A DNA stretch of 64,000 nt, taken from a virus (Duplodnaviria > Heunggongvirae > Uroviricota > Caudoviricetes). Both the position numbers and the translations under genes were made by a program. Shown one piece after another: positions 26,423-35,077 of the stretch; the stretch's first letter is position 1; every line of letters begins with the position of its first letter. Under the pieces are notes generated by a model, which made no database searches, was not told where the DNA came from, and saw only the letters and a program-made list of their open reading frames with translations. The stretch lies in IMG/VR virus record IMGVR_UViG_3300029702_000002, one strand, 5' to 3'.

Positions 26423-27190
26423 ATGGACGATTTATCGGTATACGCGAGATCATTGGATAAGGCTAAATACTATGTTTACTGTCTCTATGATACAGAAGAC
26501 AAGATGAAAAGACCGTTTTACATAGGAAAAGGCAAATCGACTCGTTGTCTCGATCACATCAAGTATCCCGATGACTCTCCCAAATCCATGCGGATCAAAG
26601 AACTTTTGGCTAATAAAAAATTAGGCATAGATATACTTCGTCATGGTATGGATGAAACCACAGCCAAACTTGTTGAGGCGACATGCATCGACCTTATGGG
26701 GGTCGGAGAGCTTACGAATAAGGTACGAGGAAGTGGTTCCATGATGGGCAGAATATCACTGGACGCCTACCATCACTTAGTGCTGCAAGAGGAAACTGAA
26801 ATTGCTCCTGAGCACGCCGGTCTTGCCTTCCTGCTAAACAGCACCTACAAGTCAGGAATGTCCGCTCTGGCATTATATGAAGCTACGCGTGGCGTATGGG
26901 CAAAGGTTCCAAGAGACGAGAATCTCAAATATGCCTACGCTACATATGGTGGGCTGATAATGGAAGTTTATCAGATTGAATGCTGGGTCAAAGCCGGTTC
27001 TCAGCAGTACTTTACAAGGGATATAGCTCTTGGCCCCGACACAAAACGTTATGAATTTGTTGGCAGAATAGCCGATGAGCATATTAGAAAACTGTATGTA
27101 GGCAAATTAATCAAGAAGCCACCAAGCTACGGTAGCCCTTTTGTGAAGGTTGGGGTGGTTAGGACTGAACATAGTGTTAGCGCGGCATAA
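26423..27190 (+). CDS. GIY-YIG nuclease-domain protein
   Basis: 255 aa; N-terminal KYYVYCLYDTEDKMKRPFYIGKGKSTRCLDH matches the GIY-(10 aa)-YIG ... R ... H catalytic pattern; plus-strand, own terminator. Confidence 0.65.
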   Translation: MDDLSVYARSLDKAKYYVYCLYDTEDKMKRPFYIGKGKSTRCLDHIKYPDDSPKSMRIKELLANKKLGIDILRHGMDETTAKLVEATCIDLMGVGELTNKVRGSGSMMGRISLDAYHHLVLQEETEIAPEHAGLAFLLNSTYKSGMSALALYEATRGVWAKVPRDENLKYAYATYGGLIMEVYQIECWVKAGSQQYFTRDIALGPDTKRYEFVGRIADEHIRKLYVGKLIKKPPSYGSPFVKVGVVRTEHSVSAA

Positions 27191-27206
27191 AGCTGACACT
27201 GTAGTT

Positions 27207-27244
27207 ATGCATTGGCGCAATGTACGCGCCAATGCATGATTTTT
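27207..27244 (+). terminator. rho-independent terminator
   Basis: atgcattggcgc-aatgtac-gcgccaatgcat 12-bp stem followed by gattttt. Confidence 0.65.
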
Positions 27245-27602
27245 AACCTTTCTTCATCAACTCTCGTTTGATTTCATCGGTACGCATCGTGACATCGGCA
27301 GCGGTGATCGCCTCATTCAATTTCACGATGTCCTCGATTTCCTGCGGTGACTTCTCTGCCAGATGGAAAATGGCTGCTCGAATCACGTCAGAACGAGTGA
27401 ACTTCTCGAAGCGAGGGATGAACTTCATCATCTCCAGCAGTTCGAAGTATTCGTCCTCCAGTGACATTGTGCGGCTTTTAATTTTCTCTTTGCCACGAGT
27501 CGGGCGTCCCTGTGGTCTGACTGGTTGGCGCAAAGGAGTTGTGTTCTTAGCCGGTGCATCAGGCTCTTTGCGCTTTGCTAGGTCACCCATTTTCATGGAC
27601 AT
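27243..27602 (-). CDS. small partition partner protein (ParG-like centromere-binding candidate)
   Basis: 119 aa, basic N-terminus; located immediately downstream of and coupled to parA, as in type Ib partition operons; assignment is contextual. Confidence 0.45.
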   Translation of the reverse strand: MSMKMGDLAKRKEPDAPAKNTTPLRQPVRPQGRPTRGKEKIKSRTMSLEDEYFELLEMMKFIPRFEKFTRSDVIRAAIFHLAEKSPQEIEDIVKLNEAITAADVTMRTDEIKRELMKKG

Positions 27603-28270
27603 TATTCTTCTTCCTCCAGACTCAACAGATAATCTACAAATTCTTCAAACTCGGCTTCCGCCTTTTTGTCGCGCTCGCTACCGGTCATTTCAAAGATAGA
27701 ACGACCAGACTCTTCCGCATCATCATAGACGTTGCGGTTATATAGATTGACTGGCGCAGACTCGATTCCAAACGTCTCAACAATCTCTTTAGCCGCCAGA
27801 ATGCGAGACACTTGTGATGGCAAAGCCGGGCACTGGTTCATGACCGCGCGGACCTTCACTTTATCGTTTACATTGCGAACATTGTCGATAATAGGATCGA
27901 TGTCACGTAAAGATTTCAAATCACGACGCTTAGGACGCAGCGGGATAATGATAACGTCAGCCATCAGCATCGCTTGTCGCTGAATTTCGGAGTCGAAGCC
28001 ACCAGCATCTACCACTACAAACTCAGCTCTACCCTGAAGCGATTTTAGGTGCTTAATGATGTCATCCTGAACGTATGCAAAAGGAATCAGCTCCAGGTCT
28101 TCGTTCTGTCGACGGTCTTCACACCAGCTCGTTGTCGTGCGCTGAATATCTATATCGGTAATATAAACCTTCTTCTTCTTTTTGACTTTCAGGCAAACGG
28201 CAATTTGCTGGGCAACGGTGGATTTGCCAGGCCCGCCCTTTGTGCCGCCAACCACAAAGATCTTGGTCAT
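27602..28270 (-). CDS. parA: ParA/ParF-type partition ATPase
   Basis: 222 aa; deviant Walker A GGTKGGPGKST; size typical of type Ib ParA. Confidence 0.75.
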   Translation of the reverse strand: MTKIFVVGGTKGGPGKSTVAQQIAVCLKVKKKKKVYITDIDIQRTTTSWCEDRRQNEDLELIPFAYVQDDIIKHLKSLQGRAEFVVVDAGGFDSEIQRQAMLMADVIIIPLRPKRRDLKSLRDIDPIIDNVRNVNDKVKVRAVMNQCPALPSQVSRILAAKEIVETFGIESAPVNLYNRNVYDDAEESGRSIFEMTGSERDKKAEAEFEEFVDYLLSLEEEE

Positions 28271-28549
28271 TGGAGAGTTCCCTTTGCGTATATAATTATC
28301 GTCTGAAACAACTTGTTTTCTTATATGTGATATAGCCTAAATGCCTACGGCTGCGGTGTAAAGGTTAAATGGTAGGTTGTGATTAACAATTGGCAAACAT
28401 AGCTTGTATTTGTCTGTTGAAAAAAGTAACAATGACCTCTATATTACAAGTACGGTGATATGCCGTACACAATTTGATAATGCACACGTAATGGGCTATA
28501 GCCTTTTAAAGTAATTTTTGAGTCGAAAACTCAGTTTGAACAGAGGAGA

Positions 28550-28858
28550 TTGATGGCCTTCCTACATCACGGCCATCAGGAGGAATACATGTCAGCACTA
28601 AAAAAGCAGCGCATCGATTTGAGATTAACCGATGACGATAAAAGCATCATCGAGGAAGCTGCCGCAATGTCTAACCAGAGCATTACTCAGTTTATGGTTA
28701 GCAGTGCATCTGAACGTGCCGTGAAAGTTATAGAGCAACACCGTAGACTAGTTCTGAATGAAGAATCCTGGAATCTGGTTATGGACGCTATAAGCAATCC
28801 TCCGGCACCGAACGACAAGCTGAAACGAGCTGCTGATCGTCTGAAAAGCATGGAGTAG
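28550..28858 (+). CDS. DUF1778-type antitoxin (TacA/KacA-like)
   Basis: About 90-100 aa; motif QRIDLRLTDDDKSIIEEAAAMSNQSITQFM; directly upstream of a GNAT gene with an 8-nt gap. Alternative start at ATG 28589 with AGGAGG RBS. Confidence 0.7.
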   Translation: MMAFLHHGHQEEYMSALKKQRIDLRLTDDDKSIIEEAAAMSNQSITQFMVSSASERAVKVIEQHRRLVLNEESWNLVMDAISNPPAPNDKLKRAADRLKSME

Positions 28859-28865
28859 TTTACTC

Positions 28866-29387
28866 GTGGATAATATAAAGATAGAAATTTTCTCTGGAGA
28901 GAAAGATTATGATTTGAATGGTTTTGATTGCGGTGAAGAATCACTAAATGCCTTTTTAACCAACCACTTAAAAAGGCAGCATGAGGGAAAAATTCTTCGC
29001 GCTTATGTGCTTTGCACGAAAGAAGGCAGACCAAAAGTGTTAGGGTATTACACTTTGTCAGGTAGCTGCTTTGAAAAGGAGTCCTTACCTTCAAGAAGCC
29101 AGCAAAAGAAGGTACCTTATCGGAATGTTCCAAGTGTTACTTTGGGTAGGCTGGCTTTGGACAAGTCCCTTCAAGGTCAAGGATTTGGCTCAATGCTTGT
29201 AACACATGCAATGCGCGTTGTGTACAATGCATCTCTTGCTGTAGGCATTCATGGACTTTTCGTTGAGGCGTTAAATGACAAAGCCAAGGCGTTTTATAAA
29301 AGTTTAGACTTTATCCAGCTGGTTGGTAACAACGAGCGTTCTTTGTTCTATCCTACAAAATCTATCGAAAAATTGTTCGAAGAATAA
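28866..29387 (+). CDS. GNAT-family acetyltransferase toxin (TacT/KacT/ItaT-like)
   Basis: 173 aa; GNAT acetyl-CoA-binding motif LQGQGFGSMLVTHAM; partner of the DUF1778-like gene. Confidence 0.7.
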   Translation: MDNIKIEIFSGEKDYDLNGFDCGEESLNAFLTNHLKRQHEGKILRAYVLCTKEGRPKVLGYYTLSGSCFEKESLPSRSQQKKVPYRNVPSVTLGRLALDKSLQGQGFGSMLVTHAMRVVYNASLAVGIHGLFVEALNDKAKAFYKSLDFIQLVGNNERSLFYPTKSIEKLFEE

Positions 29388-29554
29388 TGTACTCCCCTCA
29401 AGTGAGGGGAACTTCGCATCACCAACCGCAAACTCTCTCTCCCATCGTATTGTGAAAAAGGATTTGGCGTTCGGTTTCTTCGGTCATCACATCATTATTG
29501 CTGATATAGATAGGCCCAGCTCCATCGCAGAACAATACGCTGGCGGTTTGTGGT

Positions 29555-31039: not shown

Positions 31040-34000
31040 TCAGTTACTTGTTGCCCCAACAGTACCTGCAAATTTCAGCCATTGACCTGACGGACTTCTA
31101 TTACTACGGTAGTGATAAACGAGGATTGCGTTTGTAACTCCACCGTAGTCAGCTTTATGTGACGTTGTTAAACGAATTGTATAATCACCGTTAGGTAGAT
31201 TAAAAACTTCGATTATAGATTCTGCTAATTCTACAGCACCAAATCCCGTTATATTGTTGATACTGCCAGCATTGAATCCCATAGCATCGCCAAAGCCAAT
31301 CCAATAACTTTTGCTAAACGCCCCATTTGATTTTAGGTGGCTAATGAATGCGGACAAGCTCATGCCCATATCCCCACCTGAAACAGAGGAAGTTCGCACA
31401 GTCATGCTTGGAAGAGCACTGCTCTTCACATAGGAACTTAGAAGGTTTGTTACCTCTGTTTTCGTGTAAGCATTAAGGTTAGCCGCAGTCAAAGTTATAT
31501 CGGCAGAGCCATCAAACGCCACACCAGCAATTTTCCTTGCTGTCTGCAATTTTGTGGCGGTTGCGGCATTACCAGTAGTGTTCTGATTACCAGTTGTATT
31601 CACACCAGGGATTGAATCCTTAGCGGTATATACCTGCGCCCACGCTGACCATGCCGCACCTGTGTTATCTCTTCGTGAGCGAATGAAAACTGGCGCATGT
31701 GCACCGCTCGTACCACTCCAGCCAATAAGCAACTCTCCCTCACCAGCAGCACTCGCACCTTTCATGTGCAATACGTTGCCATACATGGTCGGGTAGCTAT
31801 TGTTGTACGCCTCATACATTTGAATGCCAGCAGTGCCTTGAGTAGAGCCGCTTAACGCCGTAACTCGGCCACGAGATACCAATGTATTAATATTGATATC
31901 GCCTGAACCATCAAACTTAACACCATTGATGTTTCTCGCTGTTTGCAACTTCGTAGCTGTTGAAGCATTACCGTTCAAACTACCATTTACGCCACCAGTC
32001 ACATTTAGTCCATTACCAATTGATACAGCACCGCTGGTATTATTAATTGTAATAGGTCGCAAACCGTTCCATGAACCTAATGTGTCTCCTGATGCTGTTA
32101 GCATGAAATATGTGTTCGATCCATCATTACGGATAAAGAACCCAAAGCTACCGTAAGCAATGCGGAAACCATTTGCATATTTTGAAATGATCTCGCCAGA
32201 AGATGTCAAACCTCCAGATAATGTACCACCGGTAAGAGGTAATGCACCGACATCAGAGGCTGTTGGTTTGTTTTTCGTGTTATATACTCTTCGCCATCCT
32301 GGAGAATAATCTGTGCCATTAAATACATAGATAAACTCCGCATTAGTGAGAGCACCGGAAACACTTGTCGTTGTGGCCGTTGTTATGCGGATCGTATAAT
32401 TATTTGAACTACTACCGTTATTAAATACTTCTATAACAGCTCCTGCCAATGGAATAACGCCACAACCAGTTTCACTATTTGGTATGGTTGCGCTATTGGC
32501 ATAGGCCCACGCACATCGAGCAATCCATGCCTTTGTGTTAAAGGCTCCATTATTTTGCAATAACGTCACTAACTGGGCTGTTGTTATTGCTCCGCCATTA
32601 CTTCCTGTAGTTAACCAACCAGTAGGAGATGCTGGGCAACCTATATTTGCTGGTGACAAGGAAATATTTGCCGAACCGTCAAACGACACCCCATTAATAG
32701 TACGCGCAGTCTGCAACTTCGTAGCAGTAGCCGCATTACCTGTTGTATTCTGATTACCAGTCGTATTAACACCTGGCAAATTAATATTTGCAGTACCATC
32801 AAAGCTCACGCCGCCGATAGTTCTTGCCGTCTGTAGTTTTGTAGCAGTTGCGGCATTACCAGTGGTGTTCTGATTACCCGTAGTGTTTACACCTGGAAGA
32901 TTAATATTGGCAGAACCGTCGAAACCAACTCCACCGATAGATCTTGCCGTCTGTAATTTCGTTGCTGTAGCAGCATTTCCTGAAAGACTTGAAATAAATG
33001 GATGTGAACAGTAATAACCTCGTCCATTTTTAAAGTCCAAAATTATCTGTGCATTCGTACTTTCTGATAAAGGATCAGTTGCCCCCCACTTATAAGTGGT
33101 TTGACCAACTGCATAATCAGCCGTTGGAACAATCACATTTAATCCTTCCTCAGCAAAAATCTGGATAGGGAATGCTCTTGTCTCAACGTAAAATACACTA
33201 CACAAATCATCATCTTTCACGCTTGCGATAATCGAGTGTATAGATCGTTCAACGGTTGAATATATTGAGAAAAAACCAACAGCATATGAACCGCGATCAG
33301 ACCAACCGCCCGGCATAACAAAACCATTAAACTCACAATTATTCATAGCGTATCCGCCAGCTGAGGAATAAGTGGTGATAACCACTCGTGAGGCTAATTC
33401 ATCTGTGCCACCACCAGTTCGGCGAAAGACTACAGGATACCACTTACCGCTTACTGCATTTGCAGGAGCAGAGAAAGTGTATTTTCGCATCCCCTTTTTC
33501 TTATCCACTTCACCTTTGCTGTAAACATTAATGTTATTCAGGAAGCGGCCCTTGTCGGGGATATCAGCACCATTCTGATCCTTCTGTAGTCTTTTTTCAG
33601 CATTATCATATGCGGCCTTAACTGCTTTTGGCGTTGCGGCCAGCGATTCACTGGTGCTATCGACAGCACTGCTAAGTTTCACAACACCTTTAGTTGTAAG
33701 GCTTGCGTCTTCCATCGCAACTGCACCGGCAATCTCTTCAGCACGATCAGCAGCAGCTTCCGCACGGGTCGCAGCGGATTCAGCAGCAGTTTTGCTCTGA
33801 GATGCTGCCGTCGCACTGCCTGCCGCCTCTGTTGCTTTCGTGGATGCTGTCGTGGCGCTGCCCTTCGCTGCGGACGCTTGTCTGGTCGCCTCATCTTTTG
33901 AAGCAGACGCCGATGATGCCGATGACGCTGCCGAACTGGCGGACGATGCGGCTGCCGTTTTTGAGGATTCTGCACGGGTTTCCGACGCTTTCGCGTTCGT

Positions 34001-35077
34001 TTCGGATGTCTTCGCTGCGGAAGCAGACCTCGCTGCTGCGCTGGCCTGTTCAGTGGCTTCGCCAGCCTTCGTTGTGGCTGTTGAAGCAGACGATGCGGCA
34101 CTTTCTGCCGATTTTCCGGCGGCGGTGGCACTGGCTGAGGCCTGCCCGGCACTTGTTGACGCGGCACTGGCAGACGACGCAGCCGCTGTTTTTGAGCCTG
34201 CCGCAGCCGAAGCGCTCTGTCCCGCTGCCGTTTCAGAAGACCTGGCGTTCGTCTCGGACGTTTTTGCCGCCTTCGCGGAATTTCCTGCCGCCGTTGCCGA
34301 GGAAGCGGCATTACTGGCGCTCGAGGCTGCGCTCGTTTCTGATGATTTCGCTGCCTCTTTTGAGGCCGCCGCATCCCGGGCTGAGGTGGCAGCTTCTGAC
34401 GCTTTCGTGGTCGCGGTGGATGCAGAAGTGGCTGCTGATTGTTGTGACGCTGCGGCATTCGTTTCAGATTTTTTCGCAGCAGTTGCACTCGCACTTGCGG
34501 CACTTTGTGAGGATGCCGCAGCGGATGCACTTTGAGACGCTTGAGAGGCTTTTTCTCCAGCGGTATTGGCGCTTTCTGCTGCTGCGGCAGCACTGGCCGC
34601 CGCCTCACGAGCTTTGTCGCCAGCAGCATCAATCGCGTCAGTGTTATTTTTATACCACTCAACGTTTTCGTTGTGCTCGTTGACGATCTGCATTAGCGGC
34701 TTAACGGTTACTTCTGTACCGTCTTCACGCTCGATTGTCACCTCATCCAGAGCAGTCAACCAACTGCGCATAGACTTGGAATCAGCCGACATACGCGACA
34801 TTAGTGCTGTAAAGCGCGCGCTAAACTGTGTTAAGTCGCCTTCATAGGTCGTAATGATTCGGCACGGAACCTCAGACTGAGTTTCGCCGGTATAAGGTTC
34901 TGAGAGAACAATATTCGTATCGCTTATTACGCGCTTGATCTCATACAGCTTATTGTCGGGGCCAATGACGATCATCCCCGGCAACACACCATTAGCTGTT
35001 ACGTTCCAGGCTGTCCCTGCCCCAACCAGAGTATTGCTACCCTGTGTAAATGTGATAGTACCTTCCCTGTACCACAT
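31040..35077 (-). CDS. tail fiber protein (side tail fiber type) with Ala/Ser-rich fibre repeats
   Basis: 1345 aa; about 300 aa of SETxAxxSxxAA-type low-complexity repeats; four to five copies of NTTGNAATATKLQTAR.I.GV.FDGSA.I.LPGV. Confidence 0.75.
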   Translation of the reverse strand: MWYREGTITFTQGSNTLVGAGTAWNVTANGVLPGMIVIGPDNKLYEIKRVISDTNIVLSEPYTGETQSEVPCRIITTYEGDLTQFSARFTALMSRMSADSKSMRSWLTALDEVTIEREDGTEVTVKPLMQIVNEHNENVEWYKNNTDAIDAAGDKAREAAASAAAAAESANTAGEKASQASQSASAAASSQSAASASATAAKKSETNAAASQQSAATSASTATTKASEAATSARDAAASKEAAKSSETSAASSASNAASSATAAGNSAKAAKTSETNARSSETAAGQSASAAAGSKTAAASSASAASTSAGQASASATAAGKSAESAASSASTATTKAGEATEQASAAARSASAAKTSETNAKASETRAESSKTAAASSASSAASSASSASASKDEATRQASAAKGSATTASTKATEAAGSATAASQSKTAAESAATRAEAAADRAEEIAGAVAMEDASLTTKGVVKLSSAVDSTSESLAATPKAVKAAYDNAEKRLQKDQNGADIPDKGRFLNNINVYSKGEVDKKKGMRKYTFSAPANAVSGKWYPVVFRRTGGGTDELASRVVITTYSSAGGYAMNNCEFNGFVMPGGWSDRGSYAVGFFSIYSTVERSIHSIIASVKDDDLCSVFYVETRAFPIQIFAEEGLNVIVPTADYAVGQTTYKWGATDPLSESTNAQIILDFKNGRGYYCSHPFISSLSGNAATATKLQTARSIGGVGFDGSANINLPGVNTTGNQNTTGNAATATKLQTARTIGGVSFDGTANINLPGVNTTGNQNTTGNAATATKLQTARTINGVSFDGSANISLSPANIGCPASPTGWLTTGSNGGAITTAQLVTLLQNNGAFNTKAWIARCAWAYANSATIPNSETGCGVIPLAGAVIEVFNNGSSSNNYTIRITTATTTSVSGALTNAEFIYVFNGTDYSPGWRRVYNTKNKPTASDVGALPLTGGTLSGGLTSSGEIISKYANGFRIAYGSFGFFIRNDGSNTYFMLTASGDTLGSWNGLRPITINNTSGAVSIGNGLNVTGGVNGSLNGNASTATKLQTARNINGVKFDGSGDININTLVSRGRVTALSGSTQGTAGIQMYEAYNNSYPTMYGNVLHMKGASAAGEGELLIGWSGTSGAHAPVFIRSRRDNTGAAWSAWAQVYTAKDSIPGVNTTGNQNTTGNAATATKLQTARKIAGVAFDGSADITLTAANLNAYTKTEVTNLLSSYVKSSALPSMTVRTSSVSGGDMGMSLSAFISHLKSNGAFSKSYWIGFGDAMGFNAGSINNITGFGAVELAESIIEVFNLPNGDYTIRLTTSHKADYGGVTNAILVYHYRSNRSPSGQWLKFAGTVGATSN
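33680..34640. repeat. low-complexity GC-rich coding repeat region (Ala/Ser-rich fibre repeats)
   Basis: Repetitive gc(n)gc codon periodicity; produces long spurious ORFs on both strands in the ORF track. Confidence 0.7.

What the first reader, a model, noticed from the sequence alone, without database searches (positions are those of the whole stretch)
28271..29387. RHH(DUF1778-like) / GNAT toxin-antitoxin pair next to the partition operon, with candidate operator palindromes
Gene pair 28550-28858 and 28866-29387 has the organisation of TacA/TacT-type modules, in which the GNAT toxin acetylates aminoacyl-tRNA. It lies beside parA, consistent with an addiction module stabilising a plasmid-state phage. 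The upstream region contains GTACGG-N7-CCGTAC (28450-28468) and repeated (G/C)ATATAGCC units (about 28328 and 28497) that could be operator or centromere sites. The phage also encodes its own tRNAs, which raises the question of toxin target interplay.
Basis: partly seen in the sequence, partly recalled or inferred. Interest (0 to 1): 0.45.

Follow-up and report, generated by a model that had tools for sequence, protein, structure and literature searches.

The report
AtaRT/KacAT-type toxin-antitoxin on phage-plasmid
This is an ordinary, already annotated toxin-antitoxin gene pair, a close relative of the well-studied AtaR-AtaT and KacA-KacT systems with the same DNA operator, carried as optional cargo next to the partition genes of an SSU5-like E. 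coli phage-plasmid.

Summary
The window is an SSU5-like phage-plasmid, 98-100% identical to Escherichia phage CMS-2020a, phage Cyrano and about 110-kb E. coli plasmids.

Genes 28589-28858 (89 aa) and 28866-29387 (173 aa) form a GNAT/RHH type II toxin-antitoxin pair of the AtaRT/KacAT clade. The toxin is 68% identical to AtaT. The antitoxin is 75% identical to AtaR and 79% to KacA. Catalytic Tyr144, acetyl-CoA Gly108 and the DNA-reading residues R8/D10/R12 are all kept.

It also occurs upstream of chromosomal ataRT and of every homologue examined. It lies 4 nt after a strong promoter (TTGAAA-17-TATATT).

Three corrections:
- The antitoxin starts at 28589, not 28550.
- The "TATAGCC" units are no better than chance. 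One lies in the par backbone, the other in the dispensable cassette.
- The phage tRNAs (Ser, Thr, Asn) are not known AtaT/KacT substrates.

The cassette (28378-29434) fills a variable slot between parA and the lysis genes. It is present in 152 of 253 E. coli genomes that carry this par locus. Public records already annotate it, so interest is low.

The parts
28378..29434 (+). Accessory cassette that fills the variable slot between the par backbone and the lysis genes (Rz1/Rz, endolysin, holin)
   Evidence: Homology to SSU5-like elements without the toxin-antitoxin pair (SSU5, p503829_100, pYZ-58-110k) stops at 28377-28380 and resumes at 29435-29437. Those elements carry other hypothetical genes in the slot.
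28417..28445 (+). Sigma-70-type promoter: -35 TTGAAA (28417-28422), 17-nt spacer, -10 TATATT (28440-28445)
   Evidence: It is the best promoter-like site in 28200-29500, with 10 of 12 matches. TTGAAA and a TATA-rich -10 are conserved islands in the otherwise diverged pOSUCZ140_2 upstream region, and similar hexamers precede the palindrome in the other homologues.
28450..28468 (.). Operator palindrome GTACGG-TGATATG-CCGTAC for the antitoxin or the toxin-antitoxin complex, overlapping the predicted transcription start
   Evidence: It has the same two half-sites and spacing as the KacAT operator duplex AAATGTACGGTTATTAACCGTACATGA (PMC6698736) and as the sequence upstream of O157 ataRT. Both hexamers are exact in 9 of 9 homologous loci. 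It is the only exact copy in the window. The DNA-reading residues R8, D10 and R12 of KacA are identical in this antitoxin.
28469..28588 (+). Long untranslated leader, about 120 nt from operator to start codon. It holds the GGCTATAGCC palindrome (28494-28503), a small hairpin GAGTCGAAAACTC (28521-28533) and the ribosome-binding site AGGAGG (28578-28583)
   Evidence: Sequence. The leader is not conserved in the diverged cassettes. Its RNA fold is no better than shuffled sequence, z-score 0.00. It has no Rfam match beyond one chance-level hit (mir-4922, E 0.35) that lies upstream at 28406-28455. Plasmid-borne homologues also have long leaders of 76-233 nt, against 26 nt in chromosomal ataRT.
28589..28858 (+). 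Antitoxin gene, 89 aa, RHH/DUF1778 (TacA1) family, AtaR/KacA-like
   Evidence: Pfam TacA1 PF08681, E 5.7e-26. KacA 5zgn_A E 6.6e-42 and AtaR 6ajm_C E 1.3e-40. 79% identity to KacA and 75% to AtaR.
28866..29387 (+). Toxin gene, 173 aa, GTG start, GNAT aminoacyl-tRNA N-acetyltransferase, AtaT/KacT-like
   Evidence: Pfam GNAT domains. AtaT 6gts_A E 8e-79 and KacT 5zgn_C E 3.7e-74, aligned end to end without gaps. 68% identity to AtaT. G108, Y144, L27, F30, H34, R37, S76, S78, K81, K82, Y85, R95 and L136 are conserved.
29391..29412 (.). G+C-rich hairpin just after the toxin stop codon, between the toxin-antitoxin operon and the convergent lysis genes
   Evidence: The terminator scan finds a 9-pair stem. 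It is scored on the minus strand with a T-rich tail; on the plus strand it lacks a T run. It lies inside the cassette.

Best explanation
The locus is a functional type II toxin-antitoxin operon of the AtaRT/KacAT clade of GNAT/RHH modules.

Expression (inferred from sequence): transcription starts at a strong promoter at 28417-28445. A leader of about 135 nt precedes the antitoxin gene (ATG 28589). The toxin gene follows 7 nt later and starts with GTG.

Activity (inferred by homology to AtaT and KacT, not shown here): the free toxin dimer uses acetyl-CoA to acetylate the alpha-amino group of charged tRNAs, mainly Gly-tRNA and tRNAs carrying hydrophobic residues, including initiator Met-tRNA. 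This blocks translation.

Neutralisation and control (inferred by homology): the C-terminal half of the antitoxin wraps the toxin and blocks acetyl-CoA binding and dimerisation. The N-terminal RHH dimers of a toxin-antitoxin4-toxin hexamer bind the two arms of GTACGG-N7-CCGTAC (28450-28468), which overlaps the transcription start. The operon thus represses itself, probably with de-repression when toxin is in excess.

Context (shown): the module is optional cargo in a variable slot between parA and the lysis cassette of an SSU5-like phage-plasmid.

Role (inferred, about 50% likely): post-segregational killing that stabilises the low-copy plasmid prophage.
For: - Identity of the element: 98-100% DNA identity to phage CMS-2020a, phage Cyrano and about 110-kb E. 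coli plasmids.
- Family: Pfam TacA1 and GNAT domains. End-to-end matches to the solved AtaT, KacT, AtaR and KacA chains, at 68-79% identity.
- Toxin active site: catalytic Y144, acetyl-CoA G108 and most tRNA-contact residues are kept (residue list from PMC7595197).
- DNA binding: the antitoxin's R8, D10 and R12 are identical to KacA.
- Operator: the half-sites and spacing equal the crystallised KacAT operator and the ataRT upstream sequence. They are exact in 9 of 9 homologous loci and unique in the window.
- Promoter: the best site in the region, ending 4 nt before the palindrome. In a diverged cassette, the -35, the -10 and the palindrome are the clearest conserved islands in the promoter region.
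- Selection: the cassette is intact over at least 80% of its length in all 152 E. coli genomes that hold it.
- Cargo status: slot boundaries and alternative cargo in the same slot.
- Public records already call it a KacT-type toxin or a TacA-family antitoxin.
Against: - No experiment on this copy was found.
- Toxicity, neutralisation, tRNA specificity, hexamer formation and conditional cooperativity are all transferred from homologues that are 68-79% identical.
- Several AtaT tRNA-contact residues differ (A26S, R40E, N41G, K79Q), so specificity may differ.
- The operator is about 120 nt from the start codon, against 26 nt in chromosomal ataRT. The purpose of this leader is unknown.
- Nothing here separates an addiction role from a defence role. 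About 40% of E. coli elements with the same par locus lack the cassette, so it is not needed for maintenance.
Confidence: 0.85

Rival explanations
1. The same toxin-antitoxin biochemistry applies, but the module's main role is defence of the lysogen against other phages (abortive infection or superinfection exclusion), or competition between mobile elements, rather than plasmid addiction.
For: It sits in a variable cargo slot whose contents differ between relatives, as accessory or defence cargo often does. About 40% of E. coli elements with the same par locus lack it. From general knowledge, many type II toxin-antitoxin systems act in phage defence.
Against: Neither protein, nor any alternative cargo of the slot, matches PADLOC-DB. 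I found no report of phage defence by AtaRT or KacAT in the papers read. Its position beside the partition operon of a low-copy replicon fits addiction equally well.
Confidence: 0.25
2. The pair is a decayed or domesticated remnant: a non-toxic acetyltransferase with a repressor, no longer acting as a toxin-antitoxin system.
For: The toxin uses a GTG start. In K. pneumoniae, the non-toxicity of KacT4 was traced to its initiation codon (PMC9431474, section list). Four AtaT tRNA-contact residues are changed non-conservatively.
Against: Both ORFs are full length. The catalytic and acetyl-CoA residues are intact. The promoter and operator are intact. The cassette spans at least 80% of its length in 152 of 152 genomes. 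The antitoxin is kept at 87-98% identity across lineages.
Confidence: 0.05
3. The TATAGCC units (28329-28337 and 28495-28503), or the GGCTATAGCC palindrome, form a second operator or the partition centromere, linking the par and toxin-antitoxin loci.
For: A 12/14 direct match exists. GGCTATAGCC is a perfect 10-bp palindrome and is kept in pGS04EC-1, whose cassette is 89% identical. The left unit lies in a 73-bp block that is nearly invariant across SSU5-like elements.
Against: A 12/14 repeat appears in 27 of 200 shuffles. The right unit is absent from pOSUCZ140_2 and p2_020019, and from all elements without the toxin-antitoxin pair that share the same par genes. A centromere cannot depend on it. 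There is no other exact GGCTATAGCC in the window, and near-matches are at chance level.
Confidence: 0.05
4. The phage's own tRNAs (Ser-UGA, Thr-UGU, Asn-GUU) are targets of, or decoys for, the GNAT toxin.
For: The tRNA genes exist at 16331-16783.
Against: AtaT and KacT acetylate Gly-tRNA and tRNAs charged with hydrophobic residues (Trp, Tyr, Phe, Met). Selection depends on the aminoacyl moiety and on consecutive G-C pairs in the lower acceptor stem (PMC7595197; PMC9177977). The phage tRNAs carry polar residues. Pairs 4-7 of their acceptor stems are interrupted by A-U or U-A pairs. The tRNA genes are 12 kb away. SSU5-like elements without the toxin-antitoxin pair exist, but I did not check whether they carry these tRNA genes.
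Confidence: 0.03

Closest known systems
AtaR-AtaT of enterohaemorrhagic E. coli O157:H7 (PDB 6AJM, 6GTS; chromosomal, between livJ and panM)
   Same: - Same order: antitoxin gene first, then toxin, with a 6-7-nt gap.
- The toxin is 68% identical and aligns over residues 1-172 without gaps. G108 and Y144 are kept.
- The antitoxin is 75% identical, with N70 and K77 as in AtaR.
- The same GTACGG-N7-CCGTAC palindrome lies downstream of the -10 element.
   Different: - This copy is on a phage-plasmid, not the chromosome.
- The operator is about 120 nt from the start codon, against 26 nt.
- The palindrome arms are 6 nt, against 7 nt (TGTACGG) in ataRT.
- tRNA-contact residues differ: A26S, R40E, N41G, K79Q.
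- DNA identity is only about 65%.
KacA-KacT of Klebsiella pneumoniae HS11286 (PDB 5ZGN, complex with 27-bp operator; 5XUN)
   Same: - The antitoxin is 79% identical, including R8, D10, R12, M65 and I68.
- The toxin matches at E 3.7e-74, and KacT Y145 corresponds to Y144 here.
- The operator half-sites and 7-nt spacer length are the same as in the crystallised duplex.
- The palindrome sits at the transcription start in both.
   Different: - kacAT is chromosomal in Klebsiella.
- KacA Q70 and R77 are N70 and K77 here.
- The spacer sequence differs (TTATTAA against TGATATG).
- Conditional cooperativity has been shown only for KacAT.
TacA-TacT (and T2, T3) of Salmonella Typhimurium
   Same: Same overall architecture, a DUF1778 RHH antitoxin with a GNAT toxin that acetylates aminoacyl-tRNA.
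   Different: Much more distant: TacT 5fvj matches at only E 6e-11, against 8e-79 for AtaT. The TacT group belongs to a different clade that is almost specific for Gly-tRNA (PMC9177977).
phd-doc of phage-plasmid P1
   Same: A type II toxin-antitoxin addiction module carried by a phage that lysogenises as a low-copy plasmid, with autoregulation by the antitoxin-toxin complex (general knowledge; mentioned in PMC7969092).
   Different: The proteins and the toxin chemistry are unrelated (Doc is a Fic-family kinase of EF-Tu). phd-doc is a persistent gene pair of P1-like elements, whereas this cassette is optional in SSU5-like elements.

Membership tests
GNAT/RHH (DUF1778) type II toxin-antitoxin, AtaRT/KacAT clade | Two-gene operon with the antitoxin upstream of the toxin, closely spaced on the same strand | tested here: met
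   Antitoxin at 28589-28858 and toxin at 28866-29387, with a 7-nt gap and GGAG 10 nt before the GTG start.
GNAT/RHH (DUF1778) type II toxin-antitoxin, AtaRT/KacAT clade | Antitoxin with an N-terminal ribbon-helix-helix and the DUF1778/TacA1 domain | tested here: met
   PF08681, E 5.7e-26, covering 79 of 80 profile positions. 75-79% identity to AtaR and KacA over the full length.
GNAT/RHH (DUF1778) type II toxin-antitoxin, AtaRT/KacAT clade | GNAT toxin with the acetyl-CoA-binding Q-x-x-G-x-G motif (G108) and catalytic Tyr144 | tested here: met
   QGQGFG at residues 103-108 and Y144 are present. The alignment to AtaT has no gaps. The roles of these residues are taken from PMC7595197.
GNAT/RHH (DUF1778) type II toxin-antitoxin, AtaRT/KacAT clade | AtaT tRNA acceptor-stem and aminoacyl-pocket residues | tested here: inconclusive
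   13 of 19 listed residues are identical, two changes are conservative (R71K, K77R), and four differ (A26S, R40E, N41G, K79Q). Specificity cannot be read from this.
GNAT/RHH (DUF1778) type II toxin-antitoxin, AtaRT/KacAT clade | Operator palindrome GTACGG-N7-CCGTAC at the promoter or transcription start, read by antitoxin residues R8, D10 and R12 | tested here: met
   Exact palindrome at 28450-28468, 4 nt after the -10 element. The half-sites and spacing equal the crystallised operator. R8, D10 and R12 are identical. The palindrome is conserved in 9 of 9 loci. Binding itself was not tested.
GNAT/RHH (DUF1778) type II toxin-antitoxin, AtaRT/KacAT clade | Toxin arrests growth by acetylating aminoacyl-tRNA, and the cognate antitoxin neutralises it | not testable with these tools
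   This needs expression assays and LC/MS of tRNA.
GNAT/RHH (DUF1778) type II toxin-antitoxin, AtaRT/KacAT clade | Toxin-antitoxin4-toxin heterohexamer and conditional cooperativity | not tested
   Inferred from 5ZGN and 6GTS only. No complex was modelled here.
Plasmid addiction (post-segregational killing) module | A labile antitoxin and a stable toxin, with the module lowering the frequency of plasmid-free segregants | not testable with these tools
   Only context is available: the module is adjacent to parA on a low-copy phage-plasmid. It is optional, present in 152 of 253 E. coli genomes with this par locus.
Type Ib partition centromere or par operator (proposed for the TATAGCC units) | Repeated binding sites that travel with the par genes and are conserved among elements sharing them | tested here: not met
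   The right unit is inside the dispensable cassette. It is absent from relatives without the toxin-antitoxin pair and from the diverged cassettes. The repeat is at chance level. The left unit alone lies in a conserved par-side block.
Known anti-phage defence systems (PADLOC-DB) | Match to a defence-system protein model | tested here: not met
   Neither the toxin nor the antitoxin matches any model at E up to 0.01.

The most novel reading that the evidence does not exclude
All AtaRT/KacAT-clade modules examined share the same operator half-sites, and the three antitoxins compared residue by residue (this one, KacA and AtaR) share identical DNA-reading residues. About 30% of complete E. coli genomes also carry chromosomal ataRT, and strain EC-16-526 carries both copies. 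The phage-plasmid module and the host module could therefore cross-repress each other's promoters. They might also cross-neutralise. Host AtaR would then act as an anti-addiction factor against the phage-plasmid, or the phage-plasmid antitoxin would silence the host system. The strong divergence of toxin sequences within the same slot (60-62% identity between E. coli and Enterobacter/Klebsiella elements, with antitoxins at 87%) would then reflect escape from such cross-talk. The crude counts show neither clear avoidance nor enrichment of co-residence: 111 excess places, against about 120 expected if the copies were independent.
Probability: 0.15. Interest if true: 0.45.

Novelty: already known. 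Interest (0 to 1): 0.15.

Why it matters
It matters little beyond correct annotation. It fixes the antitoxin start at 28589, names the clade (AtaRT/KacAT rather than TacAT proper) and places the promoter and operator. It shows that the module is optional cargo in a defined variable slot (28378-29434) of SSU5-like phage-plasmids, which are common in E. coli (253 of 5,426 complete genomes, 152 with the cassette). It could serve as a convenient natural system for asking whether a GNAT toxin-antitoxin pair stabilises a plasmid prophage, and whether it cross-talks with the chromosomal ataRT of the host. It does not open a new kind of biology.

Tried and rejected
- Upstream starts for the antitoxin (TTG 28550 or ATG 28553, the latter used in the Cyrano record). 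Rejected: KacA and AtaR align from M1 at 28589, RefSeq-nt genes in relatives, and a 1-nt indel in pGS04EC-1 breaks the frame of the extension.
- A structured or known RNA in the roughly 135-nt leader. The fold z-score is 0.00. Rfam finds nothing beyond one chance-level hit (mir-4922, E 0.35) upstream of the leader. The leader is not conserved in diverged cassettes.
- GGCTATAGCC as a reiterated site for a phage regulator. There is no second exact copy in 64 kb, and near-matches are at chance level.
- The TATAGCC pair as a centromere or operator. It is at chance level and split between backbone and cassette.
- Tandem arrays as a par centromere. Tandem Repeats Finder found no array in 28271-28588 of the window. 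The 14-nt x 12.6 array in K. variicola p2_020019 lies inside the toxin-antitoxin cassette, and the par-bearing relative without the toxin-antitoxin pair that I scanned lacks it.
- Defence-system membership. PADLOC gives no hit for the pair or for the alternative cargo proteins.
- The identity of the 119-aa ParA-partner protein. Pfam, PDB sequence search and NCBIfam gave nothing usable. The 'RelE/ParE' label in the Cyrano record is unsupported.
- Co-occurrence of the phage-plasmid copy with chromosomal ataRT. Only crude totals are available, so this is inconclusive.
- Literature on this specific phage-plasmid module. I found only general statements that SSU5-group shell genes include toxin-antitoxin systems.
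Full report
**What the window is**

The region 27200-29450 is 97-99% identical to Escherichia phage CMS-2020a and phage Cyrano. Its par half is 80-87% identical to Salmonella phage SSU5 and to Klebsiella SSU5-like phages. The stretch 28300-29450 is 100% identical to E. coli plasmid records of about 110 kb. The window is therefore an SSU5-like phage-plasmid.

In the Cyrano record the two genes are already annotated as 'putative antitoxin' and 'KacT Acetyltransferase-type toxin'. RefSeq calls them 'type II toxin-antitoxin system TacA family antitoxin' (or 'DUF1778 domain-containing protein') and 'GNAT family N-acetyltransferase'.

**Checking the observation**

- The two ORFs exist.
- parA (27602-28270, minus strand; ParA/MipZ-type P-loop ATPase) lies directly to the left and is divergent.
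- GTACGG-TGATATG-CCGTAC is at exactly 28450-28468. It is the only exact copy in 64 kb.
- Three tRNA genes (Ser-TGA, Thr-TGT, Asn-GTT) lie at 16331-16783.

Two details need correction.

First, 28550 is only the first possible start codon of the ORF. KacA and AtaR align from their Met1 to the ATG at 28589. AGGAGG lies 5 nt upstream of that ATG. RefSeq-nt antitoxin genes in relatives. In pGS04EC-1 a 1-nt insertion between the upstream ATG and 28589 breaks the frame of the supposed extension.

Second, the repeated unit is not (G/C)ATATAGCC. The left copy is GATATAGCC (28329-28337). The right copy is GCTATAGCC (28495-28503), part of the perfect palindrome GGCTATAGCC. The best register is 12 of 14 matches.

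In dinucleotide-preserving shuffles of the 318-bp intergenic region, a 12/14 direct repeat arises in 27 of 200 cases. Some perfect 6-N7-6 inverted repeat arises in 19 of 200. Neither feature is significant from composition alone.

**What the genes are**

The 89-aa protein matches Pfam TacA1 (PF08681, E 5.7e-26), and the 173-aa protein matches GNAT acetyltransferase domains. Matches to solved structures are as follows.

| Protein | Match | E-value |
|---|---|---|
| Toxin | AtaT (6GTS) | 8e-79 |
| Toxin | KacT (5ZGN) | 3.7e-74 |
| Toxin | TacT (5FVJ) | 6e-11 |
| Antitoxin | KacA (5ZGN) | 6.6e-42 |
| Antitoxin | AtaR (6AJM) | 1.3e-40 |

The toxin aligns with AtaT end to end without gaps. Global identities are 68% to AtaT, 75% to AtaR and 79% to KacA. 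The pair thus belongs to the AtaRT/KacAT clade (clade A of PMC9177977, clade 1 of PMC9431474), not to the TacT group proper.

In AtaT, G108 is needed for acetyl-CoA binding and Y144 for catalysis. F30, H34, R37, S76, S78, K81, K82, Y85 and R95 contribute to tRNA binding, and L27 and L136 line the aminoacyl pocket (PMC7595197). All of these are identical here. A26S, R40E, N41G and K79Q differ, and R71K and K77R are conservative changes.

In KacA, R8 and R12 are essential for operator binding, and D10 contributes to it (PMC6698736). The antitoxin here has the identical KKQRIDLRL strand.

**The operator and promoter**

The DNA crystallised with the KacAT hexamer was 5'-AAATGTACGGTTATTAACCGTACATGA-3' (PMC6698736), that is GTACGG-N7-CCGTAC. 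The O157:H7 ataRT upstream region reads TGTACGGTGACATACCGTACA.

I looked upstream of eight further homologous loci:
- chromosomal ataRT;
- conjugative IncF-type plasmids of K. pneumoniae, E. coli JJ1887 and Serratia;
- SSU5-like plasmids of E. coli, Enterobacter and K. variicola.

Both hexamers are exact, with a 7-nt spacer, in all of them. Each is preceded by a TATA-rich -10 element.

In the window the best promoter-like site is TTGAAA-17-TATATT at 28417-28445, with 10 of 12 matches. It ends 4 nt before the palindrome, so the operator spans the predicted transcription start, as reported for kacAT. In the Enterobacter element pOSUCZ140_2 the upstream DNA has otherwise diverged. There the clearest conserved islands in the promoter region are the -35, the -10 and the palindrome. 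This amounts to a phylogenetic footprint.

**The leader**

From the palindrome to the start codon is 120 nt. The distance is 26 nt in chromosomal ataRT and 76-233 nt in plasmid-borne copies. The leader RNA folds no better than shuffled sequence, z-score 0.00. Rfam gives no match in it; the one chance-level hit in the scanned stretch lies upstream of it. The leader is not conserved between cassette variants. Its role, if it has one, is unknown.

**The TATAGCC units**

The left unit lies in a 73-bp block (28304-28376) that is nearly invariant in nine SSU5-like elements from four genera. These include elements without any toxin-antitoxin pair, and their parA coding DNA is only about 80% identical. 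The right unit lies in the cassette. It is kept only in pGS04EC-1 and phage Cyrano, and is absent from the Enterobacter and K. variicola cassettes. No other exact GGCTATAGCC occurs in the window.

The two units therefore do not form a functional set. A par centromere cannot depend on a site inside dispensable cargo. The conserved block itself is a good candidate for the parA promoter, operator or centromere, but I did not resolve it.

**Genomic context**

Homology to the SSU5-like elements without the toxin-antitoxin pair ends at 28377-28380 and resumes at 29435-29437. The cassette is thus 28378-29434. It comprises the promoter, operator, leader, both genes and a G+C-rich hairpin (29391-29412) that faces the convergent Rz1/Rz, endolysin and holin genes. 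The same slot holds different cargo in relatives:

| Element | Cargo in the slot |
|---|---|
| SSU5, p503829_100 | two hypothetical genes on the other strand |
| K. pneumoniae pYZ-58-110k | one hypothetical gene |
| Enterobacter and K. variicola elements | a diverged GNAT/RHH pair (toxin 60-62%, antitoxin 87% identical) |

Among 5,426 complete E. coli genomes, 253 carry this par locus and 152 carry the cassette. All copies are on plasmid records, and every copy covers at least 80% of the query. PADLOC models match neither the pair nor the alternative cargo.

**How it most likely works**

[quoted passage not shown] The substrates shown for AtaT and KacT are Gly-tRNA and tRNAs carrying Trp, Tyr, Phe and Met (PMC7595197; PMC9177977). 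The C-terminal half of the antitoxin blocks acetyl-CoA binding and toxin dimerisation. A toxin-antitoxin4-toxin hexamer binds the palindrome and represses the operon, with de-repression when toxin is in excess (PMC6698736).

Shown here:
- sequence membership in the clade;
- intact catalytic and DNA-reading residues;
- the operator half-sites and spacing and their position at the promoter;
- the cassette's status as cargo.

Inferred:
- toxicity, neutralisation, stoichiometry and regulation mode;
- the biological role. Post-segregational killing is my preferred reading (about 0.5). A defence or competition role is the main rival (about 0.25).

**The tRNA idea**

The phage tRNAs carry Ser, Thr and Asn, which are polar residues and not among the known substrates. 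The lower halves of their acceptor stems are interrupted by A-U or U-A pairs, whereas AtaT needs consecutive G-C pairs there. I see no support for an interplay.

**Novelty and verdict**

This is a close homologue of two systems that have been characterised structurally and biochemically. It has the same operator, is common in E. coli phage-plasmids, and is already labelled as such in public records. Surveys of phage-plasmids already note toxin-antitoxin systems among SSU5-group shell genes (PMC7969092).

The repeat and tRNA ideas are not supported.

The least ordinary idea that remains open is cross-talk with chromosomal ataRT through the shared operator. About 30% of E. coli genomes carry ataRT, and strain EC-16-526 holds both copies.

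Noticed in passing
window 28304-28376: This 73-bp non-coding block upstream of parA is nearly invariant in nine SSU5-like elements from E. coli, Salmonella, Klebsiella and Enterobacter, while the adjacent parA coding DNA is only about 80% identical. It holds the small palindromes AAACAA-C-TTGTTT and TATAT-GTG-ATATA and, on the minus strand, TTTACA-17-TAGGCT. It abuts the left edge of the variable cargo slot. It is probably the par promoter, operator or centromere, but this is unresolved.
   Followed up: partly
L009 (MF554642.1, plasmid pTIC) 2897-3585, equivalent to window 28696-29384: In this SSU5-like plasmid, 689 nt of the cassette are replaced by 689 nt carrying aac(6')-Ib-cr. The replaced part runs from antitoxin codon 37 up to, but not including, the toxin stop codon. 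The stop codon of aac(6')-Ib-cr falls exactly on the toxin's stop codon, and a truncated antitoxin remains. A resistance GNAT has thus taken the place of the toxin GNAT.
   Followed up: partly
L008 (K. variicola p2_020019) 2669-2845; L005 (Enterobacter pOSUCZ140_2), leader between operator and antitoxin start: The toxin-antitoxin leader carries a 14-nt x 12.6 tandem array (AACCTGAAACCTAG) directly after the operator in K. variicola, and GAAAACT x5 in Enterobacter. The window has only one GAGTCGAAAACTC hairpin at the same place. The function is unknown. The arrays belong to the cassette, not to the par backbone.
   Followed up: partly
window 27243-27602 (minus strand): This 119-aa gene directly after parA, in the position of a centromere-binding partner, is labelled 'RelE/ParE putative toxin' in phage Cyrano. 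It has no Pfam, PDB or NCBIfam support for that label or for any other family. It matches only PHROG 5111, of unknown function.
   Followed up: partly
window 27207-27237: A perfect 12-nt inverted repeat, ATGCATTGGCGC-N7-GCGCCAATGCAT, lies between the convergent GIY-YIG-domain gene (26423-27190) and the end of the par operon. It is followed by a T run and looks like a bidirectional terminator.
   Followed up: no
NZ_CP184119.1 (plasmid) and NZ_CP184118.1 (chromosome) of E. coli EC-16-526: One strain carries both a phage-plasmid cassette 100% identical to the window and the chromosomal ataRT (65% DNA identity), whose operator has the same half-sites. About 30% of complete E. coli genomes have chromosomal ataRT (1,626 chromosomal places among 5,426 genomes). 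Cross-regulation is possible.
   Followed up: partly
window 31040-35077 (minus strand): This 1,345-aa tail-fibre ORF has repeated 'NTTGNQNTTGNAATATKLQTAR' units and a long Ala/Ser-rich low-complexity stretch. Cyrano annotates it as a homologue of the P1 S tail-fibre protein.
   Followed up: no
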